From a virus (lineage: Duplodnaviria; Caudoviricetes), in the IMG/VR virus record IMGVR_UViG_3300002485_000002, positions 1 through 61,697 of that record: a stretch of 61,697 bases of DNA; one strand, 5' to 3'. Below, one piece after another: positions 13,474-21,326 of the stretch; the first letter of the stretch is position 1, and the number at the start of each line of letters is the position of its first letter. Position numbers and translations under genes: made by a program. The notes beneath the pieces are model-generated. The model ran no database searches and was not told the origin of the DNA. It saw nothing but the letters and a program-made list of their open reading frames with translations.

Positions 13474-15366
13474 CTAGCTCTCTTTCATCACCATTCTGGG
13501 CATCTCCTGCCCGCTGGCTTTGCGCCCCGCCGGATTGACCTGCATCCCGATGCCGAGCGATTGAGCGGCCTGTAAGCGCTCAGTGATGCTGTTGGCCCCT
13601 GACGGGGGATTGCCTACATTGGGGATGCCTAAGACCTCAAGAAGCGTCCAGGGGTCCACCAGACCAGCCCGCGCCAACTGCAGATACAACAACTTCCGTT
13701 CGATTTCGCTGGCCGACAGCAGCGATCCCGGAGCGATATGGAATGTGAACTGGCGCAGAAACTCTTGCGCCCGGTCGAAGCGAGGCATCGGCCCTCGGGC
13801 CAGCGCCTCGGCGGTCGCTACCCCGCGATTGTCAAAGTCAGAAGCGTGGACATAGTCTGGAATCAAGCTGCCCGGATCGAAGTCGAAGTCCTCCGGCGTA
13901 ACGCCATCTTCCCCTAGAAGGTGCAGCCGGATCGGCAGCGTGTCGAATTGGGCGAAGTTATAGGCCAACATCATCGCAAACTCGCGGACGAAGGACTCCA
14001 TCATCCGGCTCCACAGGCGGATTTTGGGCGTCATGGCCTCTACCAGCCGCTCAATGGTGTCACCGGAGGGGAGTTGGTTGAGCCGCGAGAGGTGCCCGAG
14101 ATCCCGAACGCCGCTCAGGGTGTCCATTTCGTTGATGAGGAACTGGATTGTCTTCTCGATCGTCGGGTCGAGCGGCGGTTCGAGCGCCAAGACCACGCCT
14201 TTTCCGGCGGTAGGATTGTGGCGGATGCGCAGACCGGCCCGGCGGGTGTCGATCGAGTTCAACTCCGACTTGCTGATCGAGTTCTTGTCGGCGATCAGGC
14301 CAGGACGCGCTACTCTCTCGTTATGGTCATCGACCACCCTCAGCAGGCTGTTGAGAGATTTCTGAAGCGGTAACAGGTCCCACAAGGGCGCTTTGCCGAG
14401 CCATGACCACGGCCAGGGGTTCAAGGTGAACTTAGGCAGCGGGATCAAGCCGTGCCAATACCTGTTCGGACCATCATGCAAGATGACCGTGTTGGTGGCA
14501 GTGATGCAGCGCCCACGCGGATAGAGCGGCTCATCCGGCTGGACGATGTAGGACCAGTTCGTCAGCGGGCGGCCAGCCTGATCGAATTCGCCCATCTGCA
14601 CGGGGTAGCTGTTCTCATTACGGGAATCGTCCCGGAGATAGACCGTGTAATGATCGGCGGTGGGGATGCGAGGGATTTCCCGCGCTGCCTTGCCTCGGAT
14701 GCGGTCCCAGAATGGGGAAACAGCCTCATAAATTTGGGCGGCGCGGGATTGAGCATCCTGCCGGGAGGAAGTCGAGCCGTCACGGTCAGGATGAATCTGG
14801 GAGGCGAACTGAGGCCACCGACGGCGCAGCGAGTTGACTGTCCGCTCCTCGCGGATGACGGCTCCGAAAGCGTCCTGCAACGTCAGGTTCGAGGAGGGCC
14901 GAATGGGGAGAACATCCCGAGGGTCCAAGGCGCGAACATCGGTGTCGCCTATCTCGGGGTTCCAGAACACATGCGGAAATCCGGTGCCCGCTACTAACCA
15001 ATACTTGACAACCTCCAGCAAGCGCAAGTCGATCTGGCGCTGAAGGTACCAGTGGGTTGCGCGCTTGCCGAAGATTTCAGATTGCTTCTCGTAGCGCTTG
15101 TTCTGGGTACGGTATTCCCAGAAAGGCTTGATGTCGGTCAGATAGGCAGCGAGGTCGTCGGCGACCTTGGCGTAATGGTTGGCCGAGGTAGTCGAGAGGT
15201 TTCCGGGGCGGATGTCTTCGCGGGTCTGGCCGACAGCCTCGATGGACTTGGCGATCAGGTTGTAGCCGGGCTGAGCTTTGACGAAGGATTCCCCCTCCTG
15301 AATAGCTTCCCGTATCCATCCGTGGACTTGGCTGTCACGGTCGGAGGTTGGAATCTGGTCAGCCAA
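13474..15366 (-). CDS. Portal protein (630 aa)
   Basis: Size and position after the terminase; motifs L.AGTG..HV.W, LDPRDV, GP..YWHG..P, L.PLQ..LN, M..LSG; GGAGG RBS with TTG start. Confidence 0.85.
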   Translation of the reverse strand: MADQIPTSDRDSQVHGWIREAIQEGESFVKAQPGYNLIAKSIEAVGQTREDIRPGNLSTTSANHYAKVADDLAAYLTDIKPFWEYRTQNKRYEKQSEIFGKRATHWYLQRQIDLRLLEVVKYWLVAGTGFPHVFWNPEIGDTDVRALDPRDVLPIRPSSNLTLQDAFGAVIREERTVNSLRRRWPQFASQIHPDRDGSTSSRQDAQSRAAQIYEAVSPFWDRIRGKAAREIPRIPTADHYTVYLRDDSRNENSYPVQMGEFDQAGRPLTNWSYIVQPDEPLYPRGRCITATNTVILHDGPNRYWHGLIPLPKFTLNPWPWSWLGKAPLWDLLPLQKSLNSLLRVVDDHNERVARPGLIADKNSISKSELNSIDTRRAGLRIRHNPTAGKGVVLALEPPLDPTIEKTIQFLINEMDTLSGVRDLGHLSRLNQLPSGDTIERLVEAMTPKIRLWSRMMESFVREFAMMLAYNFAQFDTLPIRLHLLGEDGVTPEDFDFDPGSLIPDYVHASDFDNRGVATAEALARGPMPRFDRAQEFLRQFTFHIAPGSLLSASEIERKLLYLQLARAGLVDPWTLLEVLGIPNVGNPPSGANSITERLQAAQSLGIGMQVNPAGRKASGQEMPRMVMKES

Positions 15367-15368
15367 GG

Positions 15369-15785
15369 TTAGCCTTCCTCAAGGAAGCTGCGTCCGCTGC
15401 CTTGATCGAACCAAGCAGCCTCGTTTTGGACGTTATGATCGCGCTCAAAACGCTCGACGGAATGAAGGGTGGGCAGATCATGGCGGACGAAACCTTGACG
15501 GGCATAACGCTCGGGCATCCGGCGGTCGTTGCGGTCAGGGTAGCGGACTTCGCCGGTTTTGGGGTGCATCCAAACAACAGCTCGCTCCGATGGATGGATA
15601 GCAGGAACATGCCGATACCCGTAGGGGCGGATTGGCAGCGAGGTAATCGAGACTTCATCGTCGTGGACGATATGCCCATCGGCGATTTGCAGGTGGCGAA
15701 CAGCCTGGGCGACCGCCAGTTCGCCATGCTGAGAACAGTCTCCCTCAATCGCTAGACCACAGGAGCAGCAGGCAAGGAAGGGCAT
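15369..15785 (-). CDS. Hypothetical pre-portal protein
   Basis: Packed between neighbours; its 3' end carries the portal RBS. Confidence 0.6.
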   Translation of the reverse strand: MPFLACCSCGLAIEGDCSQHGELAVAQAVRHLQIADGHIVHDDEVSITSLPIRPYGYRHVPAIHPSERAVVWMHPKTGEVRYPDRNDRRMPERYARQGFVRHDLPTLHSVERFERDHNVQNEAAWFDQGSGRSFLEEG

Positions 15786-15789
15786 GGCT

Positions 15790-16209
15790 CTACAGGTACT
15801 GATCCAGTAGTGCGATCATACGTTGACGACCCTGTTCAATCAGTTGCAAACGGTATTTTTTCTTGAACATTCCCTCTTCATCTTCAAGTGTCCAACCACC
15901 GATATAGAACTCATCCCCTGGCCGATACGGACCCTCTCCAGTTCCAGGCGTATTGACGTAGAAACACCGTCCGACTCTGCCATTCGGTAATCGTTCCAAT
16001 GCGGTCCATTGTCCACAAATGTGGCGAGAAGTTGATGCGCCTTTCCATCCTGTCCAACTAACCGGCATCCCCCTATAGACGAACACTGGCTCAGGCCAGT
16101 CGCACAATAAATCCTGCGGAATACAATCTGAACCCCATAGATCTACGATAGAGGCTAGATTTGCTGTCGCCAGTGCTGGCAACATCACAACAAGTGTTCT
16201 CCGCTTCAT
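15790..16209 (-). CDS. 139-aa protein with RR-hydrophobic leader and two capsid-like segments
   Basis: GGAGG RBS; TGWK-x9-GQ-xx-A and GPY-xx-G-x-EF-x-I match the MCP. Confidence 0.7.
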   Translation of the reverse strand: MKRRTLVVMLPALATANLASIVDLWGSDCIPQDLLCDWPEPVFVYRGMPVSWTGWKGASTSRHICGQWTALERLPNGRVGRCFYVNTPGTGEGPYRPGDEFYIGGWTLEDEEGMFKKKYRLQLIEQGRQRMIALLDQYL

Positions 16210-16213
16210 GGCC

Positions 16214-16627
16214 TTATCCTCCGAGATAGCCCTGCAACGCCCGCGTGACGATTTCCTCGATGGCGTCCTCCAACGGCTTGCGCCCGGCGGCGTACTTAAT
16301 CTTCTGAAGCAAGTCGGGCTTGATGTGGACAGGCTTACCGTCGAGCTTGATGGTGTTAGCGCGGCGCAGAAACTCAACTACGTGACCGCCGCTAGGGAAG
16401 TTGCGGCCAAGCAGCTTCTCAAGCTCCCGGCGTCGTTCATCGTTGAAATAGAGCGATCGGCCATCGTCATGGGACCAGCAGGAACGCAGGCGGGCGACGA
16501 TGGCGGCTTCAGTGGTCAGCCCGAGAGCGCGAGCCTGAGACTGATAGACCCGGTAGGTCTCCTCGGGAAGTTCGATCGACAGGACGATGGTGCGGGCGGG
16601 GGCGGACTGCACAGGGGCGGCTGCCAT
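16214..16627 (-). CDS. Putative ribbon-helix-helix-like DNA-binding protein
   Basis: VLSIELPEETYRVYQSQARALG and VHIKPDLLQKIKYAA segments. Confidence 0.5.
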   Translation of the reverse strand: MAAAPVQSAPARTIVLSIELPEETYRVYQSQARALGLTTEAAIVARLRSCWSHDDGRSLYFNDERRRELEKLLGRNFPSGGHVVEFLRRANTIKLDGKPVHIKPDLLQKIKYAAGRKPLEDAIEEIVTRALQGYLGG

Positions 16628-16636
16628 ACGGGAGAT

Positions 16637-16665
16637 ACAATACAGCAAGCCGGGGCGAGAGGCAA
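16637..16665 (-). promoter_or_regulatory. Promoter TTGCCT-17-TATTGT, near-leaderless
   Basis: Followed by ATCTCCCGT ATG; matches the 6273-6301 motif. Confidence 0.65.
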
Positions 16666-16673
16666 GATGGAGG

Positions 16674-17522
16674 TTAGCCCTCCGTCAGTTCCGAAAACCG
16701 CTCCTCCCACTCATCCCACATTTTAGCGGCTGAGATGTCGCTGGCCTGCCACGAGGGCACCTTCTCGCCCGCAAGGACCGGCTCCCGCTCGGTCTCTACT
16801 TCCATCGTCCAGTGGTGGCCAGCCCATAGGGTCAATAGGAGCGCCCGCAGGCGGTCATCGTGGGCGCCGTAGGCGGCCTTGGCCGACATCTTCACGGGAT
16901 CCATCTCGGCGCTGCGCATCTCCTCAATCAGCCACGGGCTGTTGATCGTAACGCGGTCACGATGTATGAACTTGGCCCCGCGTACCCATAGGTGAGTGAC
17001 CGACTTGGCGGTAGCGGTCCAGCCCAAAGCTCCAGTACGGCTCGGATGTGGGACCAAGGCATCGAGATAGGTCCAGACATATTGGTTGGTGTAGCCGAGC
17101 GTAATCATCTTACGCAGAGTCTGGAGACCAGGGCCGGGATAGACTTCGATGATCGAAAGGCACTGACCATCCTCGTTGGAGCCGCCGTAGAGACGCCCGA
17201 GGGCGTTGGCGACGATCCCGAGGTCCTCCGGGTCGATTGGGGCCGCATACTCGGCAACCTGCACGTCTGGTTCAGGCTCCTGGCCGATTCGCAGGACAGT
17301 GATCGCCCCGTTGTCAACGGTAATGTCATCCCGAGTGCGCAGCATACGGTCCCAATTGGGGATGCCCATGGTCGGGTCGATGCCCATAACGTAGGAGGCG
17401 CGTGGGCGCGGAGGTTCCCAGAGCCAGATAATGCCGCGAGGGTCGCGGTCGATTTCCCCAGCGTCGAGCGGAGAGAGAGTCTGAGTGGTTCCGATCGTAT
17501 AGGAGGTGGGTGTAGGCATCAT
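16674..17522 (-). CDS. terL: Terminase large subunit, stand-alone nuclease (RNase H-like) domain
   Basis: WEPP...YVMGIDP..G, QVAEY, IIEVY..G and HDDRL motifs; ATG at 17522 overlaps the upstream stop (ATGA). Confidence 0.85.
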   Translation of the reverse strand: MMPTPTSYTIGTTQTLSPLDAGEIDRDPRGIIWLWEPPRPRASYVMGIDPTMGIPNWDRMLRTRDDITVDNGAITVLRIGQEPEPDVQVAEYAAPIDPEDLGIVANALGRLYGGSNEDGQCLSIIEVYPGPGLQTLRKMITLGYTNQYVWTYLDALVPHPSRTGALGWTATAKSVTHLWVRGAKFIHRDRVTINSPWLIEEMRSAEMDPVKMSAKAAYGAHDDRLRALLLTLWAGHHWTMEVETEREPVLAGEKVPSWQASDISAAKMWDEWEERFSELTEG

Positions 17523-17731
17523 TTCCAAACAGTAGTTACGTAAGCTCCTGTTGGAGTATGATATTCTGTACCTTCCAGAACTACCCATTGCAGATTTGTT
17601 CCCGGACAGTTGGGTGAGAGTTCCGCATGGCTAACCATCAAGCAGCGTATCAGATCATCCGTCAACGCTCCATCTATTGCAGTACTACCCTCCTGTTTGC
17701 AATCCAGGCAACGCCACTTCTGTTTATCCAA
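17519..17731 (-). CDS. Small Zn-binding hypothetical protein between the terminase halves
   Basis: GGGGAGG RBS; CxxC...H...C. Confidence 0.6.
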   Translation of the reverse strand: MDKQKWRCLDCKQEGSTAIDGALTDDLIRCLMVSHAELSPNCPGTNLQWVVLEGTEYHTPTGAYVTTVWK

Positions 17732-17755
17732 TTTAGTAACCCTCCCTTTTAGGAG

Positions 17756-18004
17756 TCACGTCGCTGTATCATCGGCGGGACTATCTTCCCGCCTTTCACC
17801 ATCACGAGCCAAACGGTGACGATGTTTCAGCTTCTCAGCATCCAAGTGGGCTGCAAGTTCATTGGCTGCCTCAGTGAAACGGTTGCCTGCGGAGGCGGAG
17901 ATTGACACATTGGACCTGTCTGGACTATCAACATCATATTTTGGCTCAGACTTGAGAAAAGCCTCTCCCGTCTCTTCCAACATTTGATATGGTCCTTTTA
18001 TCAT
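17756..18004 (-). CDS. 82-aa protein resembling the portal N-terminus
   Basis: ATGA-coupled; GEAFLKSEPKY and NRFTEAANELAAHL align to portal residues 24-80. Confidence 0.7.
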   Translation of the reverse strand: MIKGPYQMLEETGEAFLKSEPKYDVDSPDRSNVSISASAGNRFTEAANELAAHLDAEKLKHRHRLARDGERREDSPADDTAT

Positions 18005-19239
18005 GATGCTCTCCGTATCAATTCATAGGGTACGCCCGCGCGCGCTCTCAAGTCCAGCCGCTCCATCAACTCGGCATCGAAGGCAGCCTGGCCGGAGTGC
18101 TGAAAACTTTCCTCGGGAGTGGCGCAATAATTCGTAAGGAAGATATTCAGCGTAGATGAACTTGGCCCCACGTGCCCATCGCCGTCGCCCTGCGCTGCTC
18201 TTCGAGTCGTCTCCCACCAATACATTTGCTCTGGTGAAGGACTGTAGCGATAACCAACCAGCCTTGGGCTGGTATCCTCAATCTTGCGAGCAGCCAGTAC
18301 GGTAGTTTCGAAGGGTCGCCAGTCAACAGGCGGATTGCGTCGATAGCGCTTCGGCTCAATATACCAGGGGGTGAAGCTATAGATCCAATCGACGCGGCGG
18401 CCTGCTCGGACAGCTTCACTAAAACTATGCCACCAGTTGCCTCGACCGTTTGCGGCGCTTTCCAAAAAAGCGAGGGTGTCGATCGACCGGGGCAAGGTCG
18501 GGAAGAAATCGTTCTCGATTGTCAGCGGATATTCCCAGGAGGCACATTCGGTAAGATGACCAGTCGGAAAGTTGCTTCCCTGCCCGATGCCAGTATGTTG
18601 AAGACCCTGCTGGTAAAGAATATGCGAATTGAGCCGATCAAAATGAAGATGTTGAGACTTCACATCAAAACCGATAGAAGGATGAAGAAACCAAGGAAGG
18701 TTGTCGAGAATTAACTTGTCGCGCCGGTAGAGTTCAAGGATCTTACCCTCACTGACGGAGGCGGCAAGCGAACGGGTATTCTTGTGAAACAGGACGCGGT
18801 GAAGCATTAGGGCGCGGGCCAACATCGTAGCTCCCAATTGGCGAGCTTTGTGACAGGCGATCCGAATACCGTCGGCTATTTTGGCACGGTCGAAGGAGTC
18901 CCACTGGGATTCTTCCGCCTGGCCGATGAGCTTGAGCATGATTTCCTGGGAAGCCCAGAAGGTCATCGGGCCGACGCCGCCTCCCATCTCGGGGTCAATG
19001 TCGATGGTGGCGTAGCGTTCGGCGAAGTAGCGGAAGTCGCACATCGACAACAGCACTTCGTTGATGCAGAACAGGCTCTCCTCGCGGGTCAGCGGACGCT
19101 TCAATCCCTTGTCAGTCACCAGCGAGTGAATCTCAAGAGCGCGGCCCTGCGACTCAGACGGGGCGTGTCGCTTGAGGCGGACTTTCGTTGCGCTCTCGAC
19201 CTGCTCAGTGCGGCGAAGGATGATCTTGTCGGAGTACAC
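18001..19239 (-). CDS. terL: Terminase large subunit, stand-alone ATPase domain
   Basis: KARQLGAT Walker A, HLTECASW Walker B, ESAANG motif III, FTPWY, YCATPEESF. Confidence 0.9.
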   Translation of the reverse strand: MYSDKIILRRTEQVESATKVRLKRHAPSESQGRALEIHSLVTDKGLKRPLTREESLFCINEVLLSMCDFRYFAERYATIDIDPEMGGGVGPMTFWASQEIMLKLIGQAEESQWDSFDRAKIADGIRIACHKARQLGATMLARALMLHRVLFHKNTRSLAASVSEGKILELYRRDKLILDNLPWFLHPSIGFDVKSQHLHFDRLNSHILYQQGLQHTGIGQGSNFPTGHLTECASWEYPLTIENDFFPTLPRSIDTLAFLESAANGRGNWWHSFSEAVRAGRRVDWIYSFTPWYIEPKRYRRNPPVDWRPFETTVLAARKIEDTSPRLVGYRYSPSPEQMYWWETTRRAAQGDGDGHVGPSSSTLNIFLTNYCATPEESFQHSGQAAFDAELMERLDLRARAGVPYELIRRAS

Positions 19240-19497
19240 TCAGTCCTTCAACTCAATCATATCCTTCAGCCTGAATCTCCGCTTACACTTCCAGCATGTC
19301 CCTACGCCGCCACTAGTTTCATTCGCGTCGTACCACTTTGTTGCAATAACCCCTCCTACTCCCCACCACATGCCGCGCCGCCCGTCTGGAAGTTCTACGA
19401 AATGGTTGCTATCCATGCCGTCGTCGGACAGATTGTACTCATCGTAGGGACAAAGAACAGGTATGCCATTGGCGGCATCGTCTTTCGTGGATTTCAT
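19240..19497 (-). CDS. Hypothetical protein
   Basis: ATGA-coupled; Cys pairs. Confidence 0.55.
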   Translation of the reverse strand: MKSTKDDAANGIPVLCPYDEYNLSDDGMDSNHFVELPDGRRGMWWGVGGVIATKWYDANETSGGVGTCWKCKRRFRLKDMIELKD

Positions 19498-19778
19498 TCC
19501 GTCTCCTGCCCCACCGGGCTGACGATGCCCTGCTTGCGACGCATCTCCTGACGCAACTGGGCTAGTTCGTCTACGTAGGTGATGGCGTCATCGTCAAACG
19601 GTAGAGCCTCTGGCGAGGGCTTGATGCCCAACAGCGCCGCCTCGACCAGGTTATACAGACGCCGCAGGCTCTCGTTAAGGACGCGAAGTTCGGCCAGCAT
19701 AGCCTGATTGATGACGTAAAACATCCCGAGCAGTGCCATACCAAAGAACAGCAGCAGAAACAGCGTGACGTACATCAT
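19494..19778 (-). CDS. Membrane-anchored hypothetical protein
   Basis: N-terminal transmembrane segment. Confidence 0.6.
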   Translation of the reverse strand: MMYVTLFLLLFFGMALLGMFYVINQAMLAELRVLNESLRRLYNLVEAALLGIKPSPEALPFDDDAITYVDELAQLRQEMRRKQGIVSPVGQETE

Positions 19779-20380
19779 GTTGGAATCTCCGGCTCGGCAG
19801 GGCGGCCCGGCCTGACCTGAACCATCTCGATGATCTTCTCCATGCCCTGATCGGGGCCGAAAGAGGCGGAGAAGGAGTTGAAGTTAGCGACCAGGGGGGC
19901 GTCGCCGGTGACCCCCAGCGCCTGCATCATTATGTGGCGGGATTCGAGGTCGCCGGGCTTCTGGATGACCCCATGACCCGAGCAGCGCGGGCAGAGCGAC
20001 TTCGACTTGCGGCTGAGTTTGCCCTTGCCCCGGCAAGTCGGGCACAGATCGGTGAAGGAGGCGGCATCGGAGGCGATGTTTTCCATCACCTTGGGAGCGA
20101 ACGTGGACATCGCCATCAGGCCCAAGTTGACCTGATGACGCCGCCAGACATCCTGAAGGTCGGTCAATGTGACGGCATGATGGCGGCAGAGCGTCACTAG
20201 CGTCATACGGGAGTTGCGCGGGTCGGTCATGGAGGTCTGCAAGTCACGGAACCGTTGCTCCTCCTGGAGAGCAAGGGCGGCGGTAAACTCCCCCAACGGG
20301 ACGTTATGAAAGAACTTGTGCATCGAGGCGTCGTAGCGGGGGTTGTCAGGGACCGGGCGATTGTCGAGGTCGCGTTTCAT
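19775..20380 (-). CDS. Probable terminase small subunit with CxxCxGxG zinc-finger insertion
   Basis: Upstream of terL; CPTCRGKG...CPRCSGHG; helical core. Confidence 0.5.
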   Translation of the reverse strand: MKRDLDNRPVPDNPRYDASMHKFFHNVPLGEFTAALALQEEQRFRDLQTSMTDPRNSRMTLVTLCRHHAVTLTDLQDVWRRHQVNLGLMAMSTFAPKVMENIASDAASFTDLCPTCRGKGKLSRKSKSLCPRCSGHGVIQKPGDLESRHIMMQALGVTGDAPLVANFNSFSASFGPDQGMEKIIEMVQVRPGRPAEPEIPT

Positions 20381-20601
20381 GTCACCTTCCGATCCACATT
20401 GGGGATTTCCAAACCTTCAAGAAGCGTCCAGTTGTCGATTAAGCCGACCCTGTGTAGCTGCATGTATAACATCATTCTCTCAATGTTGCTGATGGACAAA
20501 AGCGCCCCCGGAGCGATGTAGAACTGACGAAGGAGTTCTTGTGCTCGATCAAAGCGCGGAAGCGCTAAAATCGGAAGCGTCAACAGAAAACGACGGGTCA
20601 T
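20377..20601 (-). CDS. 74-aa protein: TRRFL leader fused to a copy of portal residues 528-584
   Basis: GGAGGAG RBS; 41/57 identical residues by manual alignment. Confidence 0.85.
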   Translation of the reverse strand: MTRRFLLTLPILALPRFDRAQELLRQFYIAPGALLSISNIERMMLYMQLHRVGLIDNWTLLEGLEIPNVDRKVT

Positions 20602-21326
20602 GTTATCTCCTCCGGGGCGGTGTTCCCAAATAAAGCATAGTACTCAGGCGAGGCTCCTGCAACGCCCCACTTCTTTCGAAAGTAAGCCCGGTTGCGGTCA
20701 GCCTGCTTTTGGATGGCATGGGCCTCAGCATCGGGAGCGGCTTTGAGAGTCTGACTGGCGTGGTGCAGGAATGGCAGATCGAGCGAACAGGCGGTGATGC
20801 CCGCACGATGCAGGCGCACGTGGTAATCCCAGTCCTCGCAAAAGGCGATCTTGAAGTTCTCATCAAATGGGCCGACGCGGTCCCAGGCAGAGCGCCGGAT
20901 GAGGAAACAAGAGAAGTCGGGATGGGGGCGTTTCAAGGCCGGGTCGGGAGGCAGGTACGGACTGCCGATCTTCTCTCGCTCTCTTACGCCGATTCCAGTA
21001 ACGAACTCCCCGCCATCTTCCACTAGTCGTCTATACGTATCGGGCCGAAGCTCTACGTCATTGTTCACCACCAAAACGTAGTCTTCGCTCTGTGCGAATA
21101 TCCACCGCAACCCGGCATTCCAAGATTCAGCCACTGATCGGGGCGGGCGGGAATGCCAGATACCAAGATCGGCTTCGGAATCATTCGGCAGCCATCGGCT
21201 GATGCCCTCGTCGCTGTTGTCTATCAACAGAATGAAGAGGTTGCCGATGTCCTGAGCATAGAAGCTGGCAAGAGCGGGGCGAGTAAGATGCAGGCTATTG
21301 CGGTGAGGACAGAGAATCCAGTTCAT
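20598..21326 (-). CDS. Glycosyltransferase, GT2 family
   Basis: LIDNS, WNAG, VVNNDV, VGPFDENF..FCEDWDY. Confidence 0.9.
   Translation of the reverse strand: MNWILCPHRNSLHLTRPALASFYAQDIGNLFILLIDNSDEGISRWLPNDSEADLGIWHSRPPRSVAESWNAGLRWIFAQSEDYVLVVNNDVELRPDTYRRLVEDGGEFVTGIGVREREKIGSPYLPPDPALKRPHPDFSCFLIRRSAWDRVGPFDENFKIAFCEDWDYHVRLHRAGITACSLDLPFLHHASQTLKAAPDAEAHAIQKQADRNRAYFRKKWGVAGASPEYYALFGNTAPEEIT

What the first reader, a model, noticed from the sequence alone, without database searches (positions are those of the whole stretch)
17756..18004. Portal N-terminus mimic inserted at the terminase split
Seen: TGEAFLKSEPKYD vs portal EGESFVKAQPGYN (6/13 identical, most others conservative), and ISASAGNRFTEAANELAAHLDAEK vs LSTTSANHYAKVADDLAAYLTDIK (8/24). 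The blocks are in the same order with a shortened linker, and the gene is translationally coupled to the ATPase. Inference: a maintained portal-derived mini-protein.
Basis: partly seen in the sequence, partly recalled or inferred. Interest (0 to 1): 0.8.

Follow-up and report, generated by a model that had tools for sequence, protein, structure and literature searches.

The report
Portal-like mini-gene inside split terminase
A tiny gene wedged between the two halves of a soil phage's DNA-packaging enzyme probably descends from the front end of a portal gene, but the resemblance is weak, the gene is rare and its function is untested.

Summary
ORF 17756-18004 (minus strand, 82 aa) aligns collinearly with residues 23-76 of the phage's own portal (BLASTP 28.1 bits, pairwise E 3e-5). 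Its ATG overlaps the TGA of the terminase ATPase gene.

The resemblance is borderline:
- For it: best of 120 portals 32.7 bits; 0 of 2000 shuffles and 1 unrelated ORF among 9,685 null queries reach that.
- Against it: HMMER profiles fail in both directions.

A full-library scan found one diverged relative, P0125 (70% identity over 33 aa). Its extra upstream residues align best to exactly the collinear portal columns. The joint profile-profile comparison gives 87% probability (E 3.9e-6). I put portal ancestry at about 0.7.

Context matters more than the mimic idea. terL is split in 51 of 55 related loci, and the gap is a cargo slot of 0-3.5 kb holding unrelated genes. The ORF is absent from 83 related loci and 26 near-complete relatives. 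It lies in a low-GC island with a zinc-finger ORF.

A second, unambiguous portal fragment (74 aa, 71% identical to portal 527-584) lies at 20377-20601.

"Maintained" is only partly supported, and "mimic" is untested. Interest is moderate.

The parts
17756..18004 (-). 82-aa ORF (q82), the finding itself. An alternative start at Met8 (ATG 17983-17981) gives the 75-aa form that public gene calls use.
   Evidence: The ATGA overlap with the TerL-N stop is read.
17843..17974 (-). Portal-like segment of q82 (residues 11-54). It has two blocks with a 10-residue deletion between them, relative to portals.
   Evidence: BLASTP; hhalign.
18001..19239 (-). TerL-N, the terminase large-subunit ATPase half (412 aa).
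   Evidence: A profile of 26 relatives hits the T4/RB49 gp17 ATPase, E 4e-10. Weak matches to phrog_5989 and phrog_2.
17519..17731 (-). 70-aa Cys-rich (zinc-finger-like) ORF with a TTG start behind GGGAGGG. Its stop overlaps the TerL-C ATG.
   Evidence: No family match. GC3 is 0.39.
16674..17522 (-). TerL-C, the terminase nuclease half. The start at 17522 makes an ATGA overlap with the preceding ORF.
   Evidence: A profile of 25 relatives hits the RB49 terminase nuclease 3c6a at E 5.9e-5 and gp17 at E 2e-3. The start is read.
13474..15366 (-). Full-length portal (630 aa). Residues 23-76 (window 15139-15300) are the part that q82 resembles.
   Evidence: phrog_156 E 3.2e-7. AF2 model with pLDDT 81.6. 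Foldseek matches the Pan3, Pa223, N4, SU10, T7 and P22 portals at E 1e-14 to 1e-10.
20377..20601 (-). 74-aa ORF that is a clear copy of portal residues 527-584 (the C-terminal conserved region). Its stop overlaps the start of the next gene.
   Evidence: BLASTP 71% identity, E 2e-24. hhalign 99.5%. pN 0.16 and pS 0.83 against the own portal.

Best explanation
q82 is a real small accessory gene, not a piece of the packaging machine. It sits in a hypervariable cargo slot created by a clade-wide split of terL into separate ATPase and nuclease genes. It is most likely translated by coupling to TerL-N. It descends from the first ~80 codons of a podovirus-type portal gene: part of the first N-terminal helix, a shortened linker that has lost the second helix, and the third helix. 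By analogy with P22 these belong to the wing domain. It has since diverged into a small family of its own (q82, a 97% variant, and P0125). It reached this genome from a lower-GC relative, together with the adjacent zinc-finger ORF. Shown: position, coupling signals, the split, cargo variability, composition, and the weak collinear similarity. Inferred: common ancestry with portals and long-term retention as a coding gene. Speculative: it works as a free copy of the portal's N-terminal wing helices and competes for whatever binds them, such as neighbouring portal subunits, scaffold, or a host portal sensor.
For: Similarity: BLASTP 28.1 bits to the own portal. Up to 32.7 bits across 120 portals, with 72 of 88 top HSPs at the N-terminus. 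0 of 2000 shuffles and 1 unrelated ORF among 9,685 null queries reach 32.7 bits. hhalign gives 64%.

Independent member: P0125 matches at phmmer E 2.1e-4 in 1.84e9 proteins, 70% identity over residues 9-41. It shares the 10-residue deletion. On its own it hits portal columns 6-39 at 65.7%, E 5.7e-5. Its 32 residues upstream of the shared block find their best local alignment in the whole 636-column portal profile at columns 7-23, the collinear place. The joint profile gives 87%, E 3.9e-6.

Not a recent scar: no portal scored E <= 1e-3 with q82 in the full library.

Slot: 51 of 55 related loci have a split terL, with gaps of 0-3.5 kb holding a C5 methyltransferase-like gene, glycosyltransferase-like genes, a homing-endonuclease-like gene and zinc-finger ORFs. 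Those gene names are read by eye.

Coupling: ATGA overlaps and Shine-Dalgarno sites.

Foreign composition: GC3 is 0.43 for q82 and 0.39 for the zinc-finger ORF, against 0.64-0.75 in terL and portal. GC dips to 0.47-0.51 at 17500-18000.

Secondary structure is compatible: q82 has H5-18 and H37-73; the portal has H11-30, H35-46 and H64-76.
Against: HMMER profiles see nothing in either direction. The portal HMM scores q82 at 0.9 bits, E 8.5 in 1240 ORFs. The q82-family HMM has 0 matches at E <= 1 in 26 relatives' genomes, portals included.

Of the nearly invariant portal positions in the aligned range, q82 keeps F28, S58 and N63. It lacks E24, G34 and K67, and the invariant T77, D78 and F82 just beyond.

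In the window's own all-against-all the pair sits just above noise.

The extension-only alignment has P 0.066 by score.

Codon-usage score is -0.009, in the lowest 1% of in-frame windows of the phage's genes, though above every off-frame window.

The family has only three sequences among about 15 billion proteins. It is absent from 83 related loci.

There is no polymorphism, RNA or protein evidence.
Confidence: 0.5

Rival explanations
1. Unrelated ORFan cargo gene. q82 is a genuine accessory gene of the terL slot, but its likeness to the portal N-terminus is a coincidence between two short helical, Ala/Glu/Leu-rich segments.
For: HMMER is negative both ways. The pair ranks 23rd in the window's all-against-all, close to noise at 26-27 bits. 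One unrelated ORF scored 35.4 bits against the portals in the null set. The invariant portal residues T77, D78 and F82 are absent.
Against: The alignment is collinear and N-terminus to N-terminus in 72 of 88 portals. P0125 hits the same portal columns on its own. Its non-overlapping upstream residues land in exactly the collinear register. The joint profile rises to 87%. A second, certain portal fragment in the same genome shows that portal pieces do end up as small ORFs here.
Confidence: 0.25
2. Inert recombination scar. q82 is a leftover 5' piece of a foreign portal gene, carried in when the low-GC cassette was spliced into the slot. It may be translated only because it inherited the coupling position, and it has no function.
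For: It is unique to one phage population plus one variant. It is absent in 83 related loci and 26 genomes. Codon fit is poor and GC is low. The same genome holds another portal fragment. Mosaic joints in phages commonly leave gene stumps; this is recalled general knowledge, and an earlier scan note (e1-371137) describes such a case.
Against: No sampled portal is close to it: nothing at E <= 1e-3 among 1.84e9 representatives. So the stump is old, yet it is still an open frame with a start codon and Shine-Dalgarno site. A 70%-identical relative keeps the same frame and the same deletion inside an ORF of at least 102 codons. The best-conserved stretch between the two (PKYDVD.P.R...SISASAGN) is family-specific, not portal-like.
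Confidence: 0.2
3. Not a gene. This would be an open frame that persists by chance in the spacer between terL halves.
For: Codon score lies at the bottom 1% of real in-frame windows. No family, fold or Atlas match was found.
Against: The score is above all off-frame windows. The start overlaps the upstream stop and has an SD site. The neighbouring ORFs are tightly packed on the same strand. A diverged homologue exists in another assembly.
Confidence: 0.05

Closest known systems
Phage accessory regions: hotspots of variable accessory genes between conserved core genes (Silas et al., bioRxiv 10.1101/2023.04.06.535777; I saw passages only)
   Same: The slot is flanked by two conserved core genes (TerL-N and TerL-C). 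Its content differs in nearly every relative. The genes in it are compositionally foreign.
   Different: Here the flanking 'core genes' are two halves of what is normally one gene, and the cargo is chained to them by overlapping stop and start codons. No counter-defence role has been shown. The paper's lists of regions are in supplements that I could not see.
Podovirus-type portal proteins (SU10, N4, T7, P22, Pan3), specifically the N-terminal helices of the wing domain
   Same: There is collinear similarity to portal residues ~6-82. In P22 the wing comprises residues 6-319 and 417-524 and is where the scaffolding protein docks (PMC12005531, passages).
   Different: q82 is 82 aa against 630. 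It lacks the second helix, the invariant T-D-x-K-P-F-W motif and everything after it. It is not a portal and cannot form a ring. I did not superpose the models, so assigning these helices to the wing is by analogy.
Gene stumps at mosaic joints of phage genomes (illegitimate-recombination model; recalled, not read here). Earlier scan note e1-371137 describes one at a terL-portal junction.
   Same: It is a partial copy of a structural gene at a junction that varies among relatives. The 74-aa portal C-terminal fragment at 20377-20601 fits this picture well.
   Different: q82 is far more diverged than any sampled portal pair. It has its own start signals and has a diverged relative elsewhere. Fresh scars are usually near-identical to a donor.
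Stand-alone domain copies of packaging proteins kept as accessory genes (coliphage 186 W-like terminase-ATPase paralogue; earlier scan note e1-157057, not checked here)
   Same: A piece of a head-assembly or packaging protein is encoded separately, next to the packaging genes.
   Different: That case is a whole folded domain with clear homology and a wide distribution. q82 is two helices with marginal homology and three known sequences.

Membership tests
Portal protein family (phrog_156 / PF23899 SU10_portal-like) | Significant sequence-profile match to the family | tested here: inconclusive
   HMMER portal profile: 0.9 bits, E 8.5. hhalign: 64%, E 6.4e-5 alone and 87%, E 3.9e-6 with P0125. 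No Pfam or PHROG hit for q82.
Portal protein family (phrog_156 / PF23899 SU10_portal-like) | Complete clip-stem-wing-crown fold able to form a ring | tested here: not met
   q82 has 82 aa and two predicted helices. The true portal of 630 aa folds like solved portals.
Portal protein family (phrog_156 / PF23899 SU10_portal-like) | Family-invariant N-terminal residues (T77, D78, F82; nearly invariant E24, F28, Q32, G34, L57, S58, N63, K67) | tested here: not met
   Only F28, S58 and N63 are kept. Q32 to E and L57 to I are conservative changes. T77, D78 and F82 are absent.
Accessory-region (hotspot) cargo gene | Lies between conserved core genes at a site whose content varies among relatives | tested here: met
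   51 of 55 loci are split, with gaps from -112 to 3474 nt. 41 ORFs with unrelated sequences were found in the 26 loci with a gap.
Accessory-region (hotspot) cargo gene | Patchy distribution and foreign composition | tested here: met
   0 of 83 other loci and 0 of 26 genomes carry it. GC3 is 0.43 against 0.64-0.75. There is a GC dip.
Fresh recombination scar / pseudogene stump | Close identity to a donor gene, with loss of start signals or a broken frame | tested here: not met
   No portal at E <= 1e-3 in 1.84e9 representatives. The frame is intact with ATG and SD.
Group I/II intron or intein insertion splitting terL | Ribozyme core, or intein blocks in frame with the host protein | tested here: not met
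   Rfam at E <= 1 over 15000-21000 gives only a chance snoRNA-type hit. The halves have their own starts, and in many relatives they overlap in different frames. Inteins do occur in TerL-N of some relatives, such as L002, but not here.
Molecular mimic or decoy of a phage structural protein | Binds the partner of the mimicked surface | not testable with these tools
   No partner is known. The one complex job gave no verdict (see Tried and rejected).

The most novel reading that the evidence does not exclude
This phage carries two portal-derived mini-proteins: q82 from the N-terminal wing helices and the 74-aa ORF from the conserved C-terminal region. Both would be expressed with the packaging genes as soluble decoys. 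They would either blunt a host sensor that recognises portal proteins (Avs4-type STAND NTPases) or poison portal-ring or procapsid nucleation of co-infecting relatives. The split terL would serve as a late-expressed, stoichiometrically coupled launch pad for such cargo.
Probability: 0.1. Interest if true: 0.75.

Novelty: new variant of a known kind. Interest (0 to 1): 0.4.

Why it matters
If the ancestry and retention are real, this would be a case of a phage recycling a short surface piece of its own assembly machinery into a free-standing accessory protein. That is a plausible route to decoys against portal-sensing immunity or against rival phages. I found no portal-derived mini-protein described in two literature searches.

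The firmer and probably more useful result is the context. In this clade of ~60-68 kb soil phages the terminase is encoded as two genes in 51 of 55 loci. The nearest cultured relatives I found are Tunturiibacter phages, with 23% portal identity and an unsplit terL. The junction between the two genes acts as a cargo slot, and this frames how any gene found there should be read.

As it stands, q82 itself is a weakly supported curiosity.

Tried and rejected
Searches for more relatives of q82:
- Viral contigs with q82 and with P0125: none.
- Metagenome contigs and genome contigs with alignment A2: none.
- Word-indexed protein search with q82: only its own cluster.
- Word-indexed protein search with P0125: only itself.
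- tblastn against cultured phages: one chance hit at E 0.6.

Two further phmmer hits (P0124, 8 stretches; P0126, 12 stretches) are tandem-repeat proteins whose scores sum many weak matches. I rejected them as spurious.

Structure and family searches:
- ESM Atlas: no feature hit, and helical look-alikes only.
- Foldseek of the low-confidence q82 model: nothing.
- PDB sequence search with A2: only chance hits.

Population variation: four runs were laid on 16600-20700. All pieces were identical to the window, so no dN/dS was possible.

Expression: no RNA holder is listed among the 15 runs.

Binding: one complex job, portal residues 83-630 with q82, ended as 'no answer' with score 0.00. It says nothing either way.

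Zinc ribbons: the P0125 zinc ribbon against the small zinc-finger ORF that follows TerL-N in L011 gives E 0.042, not significant. Against the window's 70-aa ORF there is no alignment. I therefore dropped the idea of a fused-versus-adjacent domain link.

Introns: an intron reading of the split was rejected.

DNA repeats: nothing links q82 to the portal 5' end.

A shuffle test of the P0125 extension was being run when the script machine was lost. I replaced it with the hhalign.

Full report
**What is there**

The window is a complete virus record of 61,697 bp with direct terminal repeats. It is held by 15 listed sequencing runs, 14 labelled soil and one sediment metagenome. All long genes run on the minus strand. 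In transcription order, the region reads as follows.
- A 74-aa ORF at 20377-20601.
- A DnaJ-type zinc-finger protein at 19775-20380.
- Two small ORFs.
- TerL-N at 18001-19239.
- The 82-aa ORF under study, q82, at 17756-18004.
- A 70-aa Cys-rich ORF at 17519-17731.
- TerL-C at 16674-17522.
- Three accessory ORFs.
- The portal at 13474-15366.

The identities of the core genes are confirmed.
- TerL-N: a profile of 26 relatives hits the gp17 ATPase of T4/RB49 at E 4e-10.
- TerL-C: a profile of 25 relatives hits the RB49 terminase nuclease domain at E 5.9e-5.
- Portal: the 630-aa protein folds with pLDDT 81.6. It matches solved portals of Pan3, Pa223, N4, SU10, T7 and P22 at Foldseek E 1e-14 to 1e-10.

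**Checking the observation**

BLASTP joins them into one collinear alignment of q82 residues 11-54 with portal residues 23-76, with one 10-residue gap (28.1 bits, pairwise E 3e-5).

The gene signals read as follows.
- The q82 ATG overlaps the TerL-N stop (ATGA), with GGAG six bases upstream.
- A 24-nt spacer with GGGAGGG leads to the TTG of the zinc-finger ORF.
- The zinc-finger ORF's stop overlaps the ATG of TerL-C.

Public gene calls start q82 at Met8, giving 75 aa. Several portal alignments extend to q82 residues 1-2, which mildly favours the longer form.

**Is the likeness more than chance?**

Evidence for:
- Among 120 portal relatives, 88 give any HSP and 72 of those place the top HSP at the portal N-terminus. 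The best is 32.7 bits at 36% identity over 56 residues.
- None of 2000 shuffles of q82 reaches 32.7 bits, and 9 reach 28.1.
- Of 9,685 six-frame ORFs of 50-150 aa from the window and 84 loci used as null queries, four reach 32.7 bits. These are q82 twice (window and L004), the true 74-aa portal fragment, and one unrelated ORF at 35.4 bits.
- hhalign of q82 against the portal alignment gives 64% probability, E 6.4e-5.

Evidence against:
- A HMMER profile of the same alignment gives q82 0.9 bits, E 8.5 among 1240 ORFs.
- In the window's own all-against-all of 934 six-frame ORFs, the pair ranks 23rd, just above noise at 26-27 bits.
- q82 keeps only three of the eight nearly invariant portal positions in the aligned range. 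It lacks the invariant T77, D78 and F82 that follow.

Taken alone, q82 is therefore borderline.

**A second family member tips the balance**

A full HMMER scan of 1.84 billion representatives found four hits:
- the 97% variant P0001;
- two repeat proteins that I reject as spurious;
- P0125, a 102-aa protein that ends at the last residue aligned with q82, so it is probably cut by a contig end.

P0125 is 70% identical to q82 residues 9-41 and shares the 10-residue deletion. It has about 60 extra N-terminal residues: a CxxC...CxxC ribbon and then a stretch that q82 lacks.

P0125 on its own hits portal columns 6-39 at 65.7%, E 5.7e-5. The 32 residues upstream of the shared block were searched alone against all 636 profile columns. 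They align best at columns 7-23, exactly the collinear register, although the score alone is weak (P 0.066). The joint profile of q82, P0001 and P0125 against portals gives 87% probability, E 3.9e-6, over 67 columns covering portal 6-82.

Against this, the same three-sequence profile run through HMMER finds nothing at E <= 1 in 26 near-complete relatives' genomes, not even their portals.

I put common ancestry at about 0.7.

**Context: a split terminase used as a cargo slot**

Of 55 related loci that hold both halves, 51 encode them as separate ORFs and 4 as one fused ORF. These loci are not dereplicated; for example, L002 and L006 are one contig.

In many loci the halves abut or overlap in different frames. 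In 26 loci the gap is about 90-3470 nt. It holds 41 ORFs with unrelated sequences, which by eye include:
- small zinc-finger proteins;
- a C5-methyltransferase-like gene;
- an HNH-like gene;
- glycosyltransferase-like genes with LAGLIDADG-like neighbours;
- twin-arginine-leader proteins;
- two very large proteins.

None of these resembles q82 or a portal. No Rfam intron is present in the window.

The nearest cultured phages I found, Tunturiibacter phages Tunturi_1 and Tunturi_2, have 22.9% portal identity. In Tunturi_1, the one whose annotation I viewed, terL is a single gene.

q82, the zinc-finger ORF and two upstream small ORFs have no tblastn match in the other 83 loci.

**Origin**

q82 and the zinc-finger ORF have GC3 of 0.43 and 0.39, against 0.64 to 0.75 for terL and portal. 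The first 100 portal codons have 0.74. GC falls to 0.47-0.51 across 17500-18000, against 0.58-0.63 on either side. So the pair looks like one imported cassette, not a duplicate of the resident portal.

No portal in the 1.84-billion library reaches E 1e-3 with q82. A recent stump of a sampled portal lineage is therefore unlikely. An old stump that stays open, keeps start signals, and is open in a second lineage within an ORF of at least 102 codons argues for retention as a coding gene. Without DNA for P0125 I could not measure selection. All four laid runs were identical to the window.

**A second, certain portal fragment**

The 74-aa ORF at 20377-20601 is 71% identical to portal residues 527-584 (E 2e-24; hhalign 99.5%). 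It is closer to the resident portal than to any of 75 relatives, which reach at most 65.5%. It has pN 0.16 with saturated pS 0.83. It sits in a GC dip and is alone in its protein cluster.

No short portal fragment was found among 19,955 six-frame ORFs of the related loci. Two portal-like mini-ORFs in one genome is therefore unusual. It raises the prior that q82 is portal-derived.

**How it most likely works**

Steps that are shown: q82 is placed so that ribosomes finishing TerL-N can restart on it, and the chain continues to TerL-C. Cargo in this slot is thus made late, with the packaging proteins.

Steps that are inferred: it is a diverged free copy of portal helices 1 and 3. The predicted helices are compatible: q82 has H5-18 and H37-73, and the portal has H11-30, H35-46 and H64-76. 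In P22 the wing domain includes the N-terminal residues and is where the scaffolding protein docks (PMC12005531, passages).

The speculative step: q82 competes for a partner of that surface. Because 51 split-terL relatives lack it, it is not needed for the split enzyme to work.

**Verdict**

- Ancestry: probable.
- Retention: plausible.
- Mimicry: untested.

It is best filed as an accessory-slot gene of probable portal descent, a new variant of a known kind, of moderate interest.

Noticed in passing
window 20377-20601 (minus strand): A 74-aa ORF is an unmistakable copy of portal residues 527-584 (71% identity, E 2e-24). It is lower in GC than the portal, and its stop overlaps the start of the next gene. 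No such fragment appears in 83 related loci.
   Followed up: partly
window 16674-19239; loci L001-L084: terL is encoded as separate ATPase and nuclease genes in 51 of 55 related loci, with 4 fused. The junction carries 0-3.5 kb of unrelated cargo. Some relatives also have an intein-sized insert in TerL-N, for example L002 5289-7577 (762 aa). Cultured Tunturiibacter phage Tunturi_1 has one unsplit terL.
   Followed up: partly
window 15790-16209 (minus strand); L005 2296-2841: The twin-arginine-leader ORF between TerL-C and the portal is homologous (39% identity over 66 aa, E 5e-10) to an ORF that in L005 sits inside the terL split. The same cargo family therefore occupies different slots in different relatives. 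By eye, leader-bearing ORFs also fill the slot in L007, L032 and L077.
   Followed up: partly
window 16966-16989 and 18156-18179: There is a 24-nt direct repeat, 22 of 24 identical, with one copy in TerL-C and one in TerL-N. The two copies are read in different frames. By eye, the TerL-N copy falls where this phage has about nine extra residues relative to the consensus of 26 relatives. It may be a templated patch. By my rough estimate it is unlikely by chance.
   Followed up: no
window 15750-16250, 17500-18000, 19250-19500, 20375-20624: Small accessory ORFs around the packaging genes all sit in GC dips of 0.47-0.53, against 0.58-0.64 elsewhere. This suggests repeated import from lower-GC relatives.
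   Followed up: no
protein P0125 (not in the window): The only diverged relative of q82 carries an N-terminal CxxC...CxxC ribbon fused to the portal-like segment. Small zinc-ribbon ORFs are also the commonest first gene after TerL-N in relatives (L011, L029, L032, L038, L068, L084; by eye). The likeness of P0125 to the L011 ribbon is not significant (E 0.042).
   Followed up: partly
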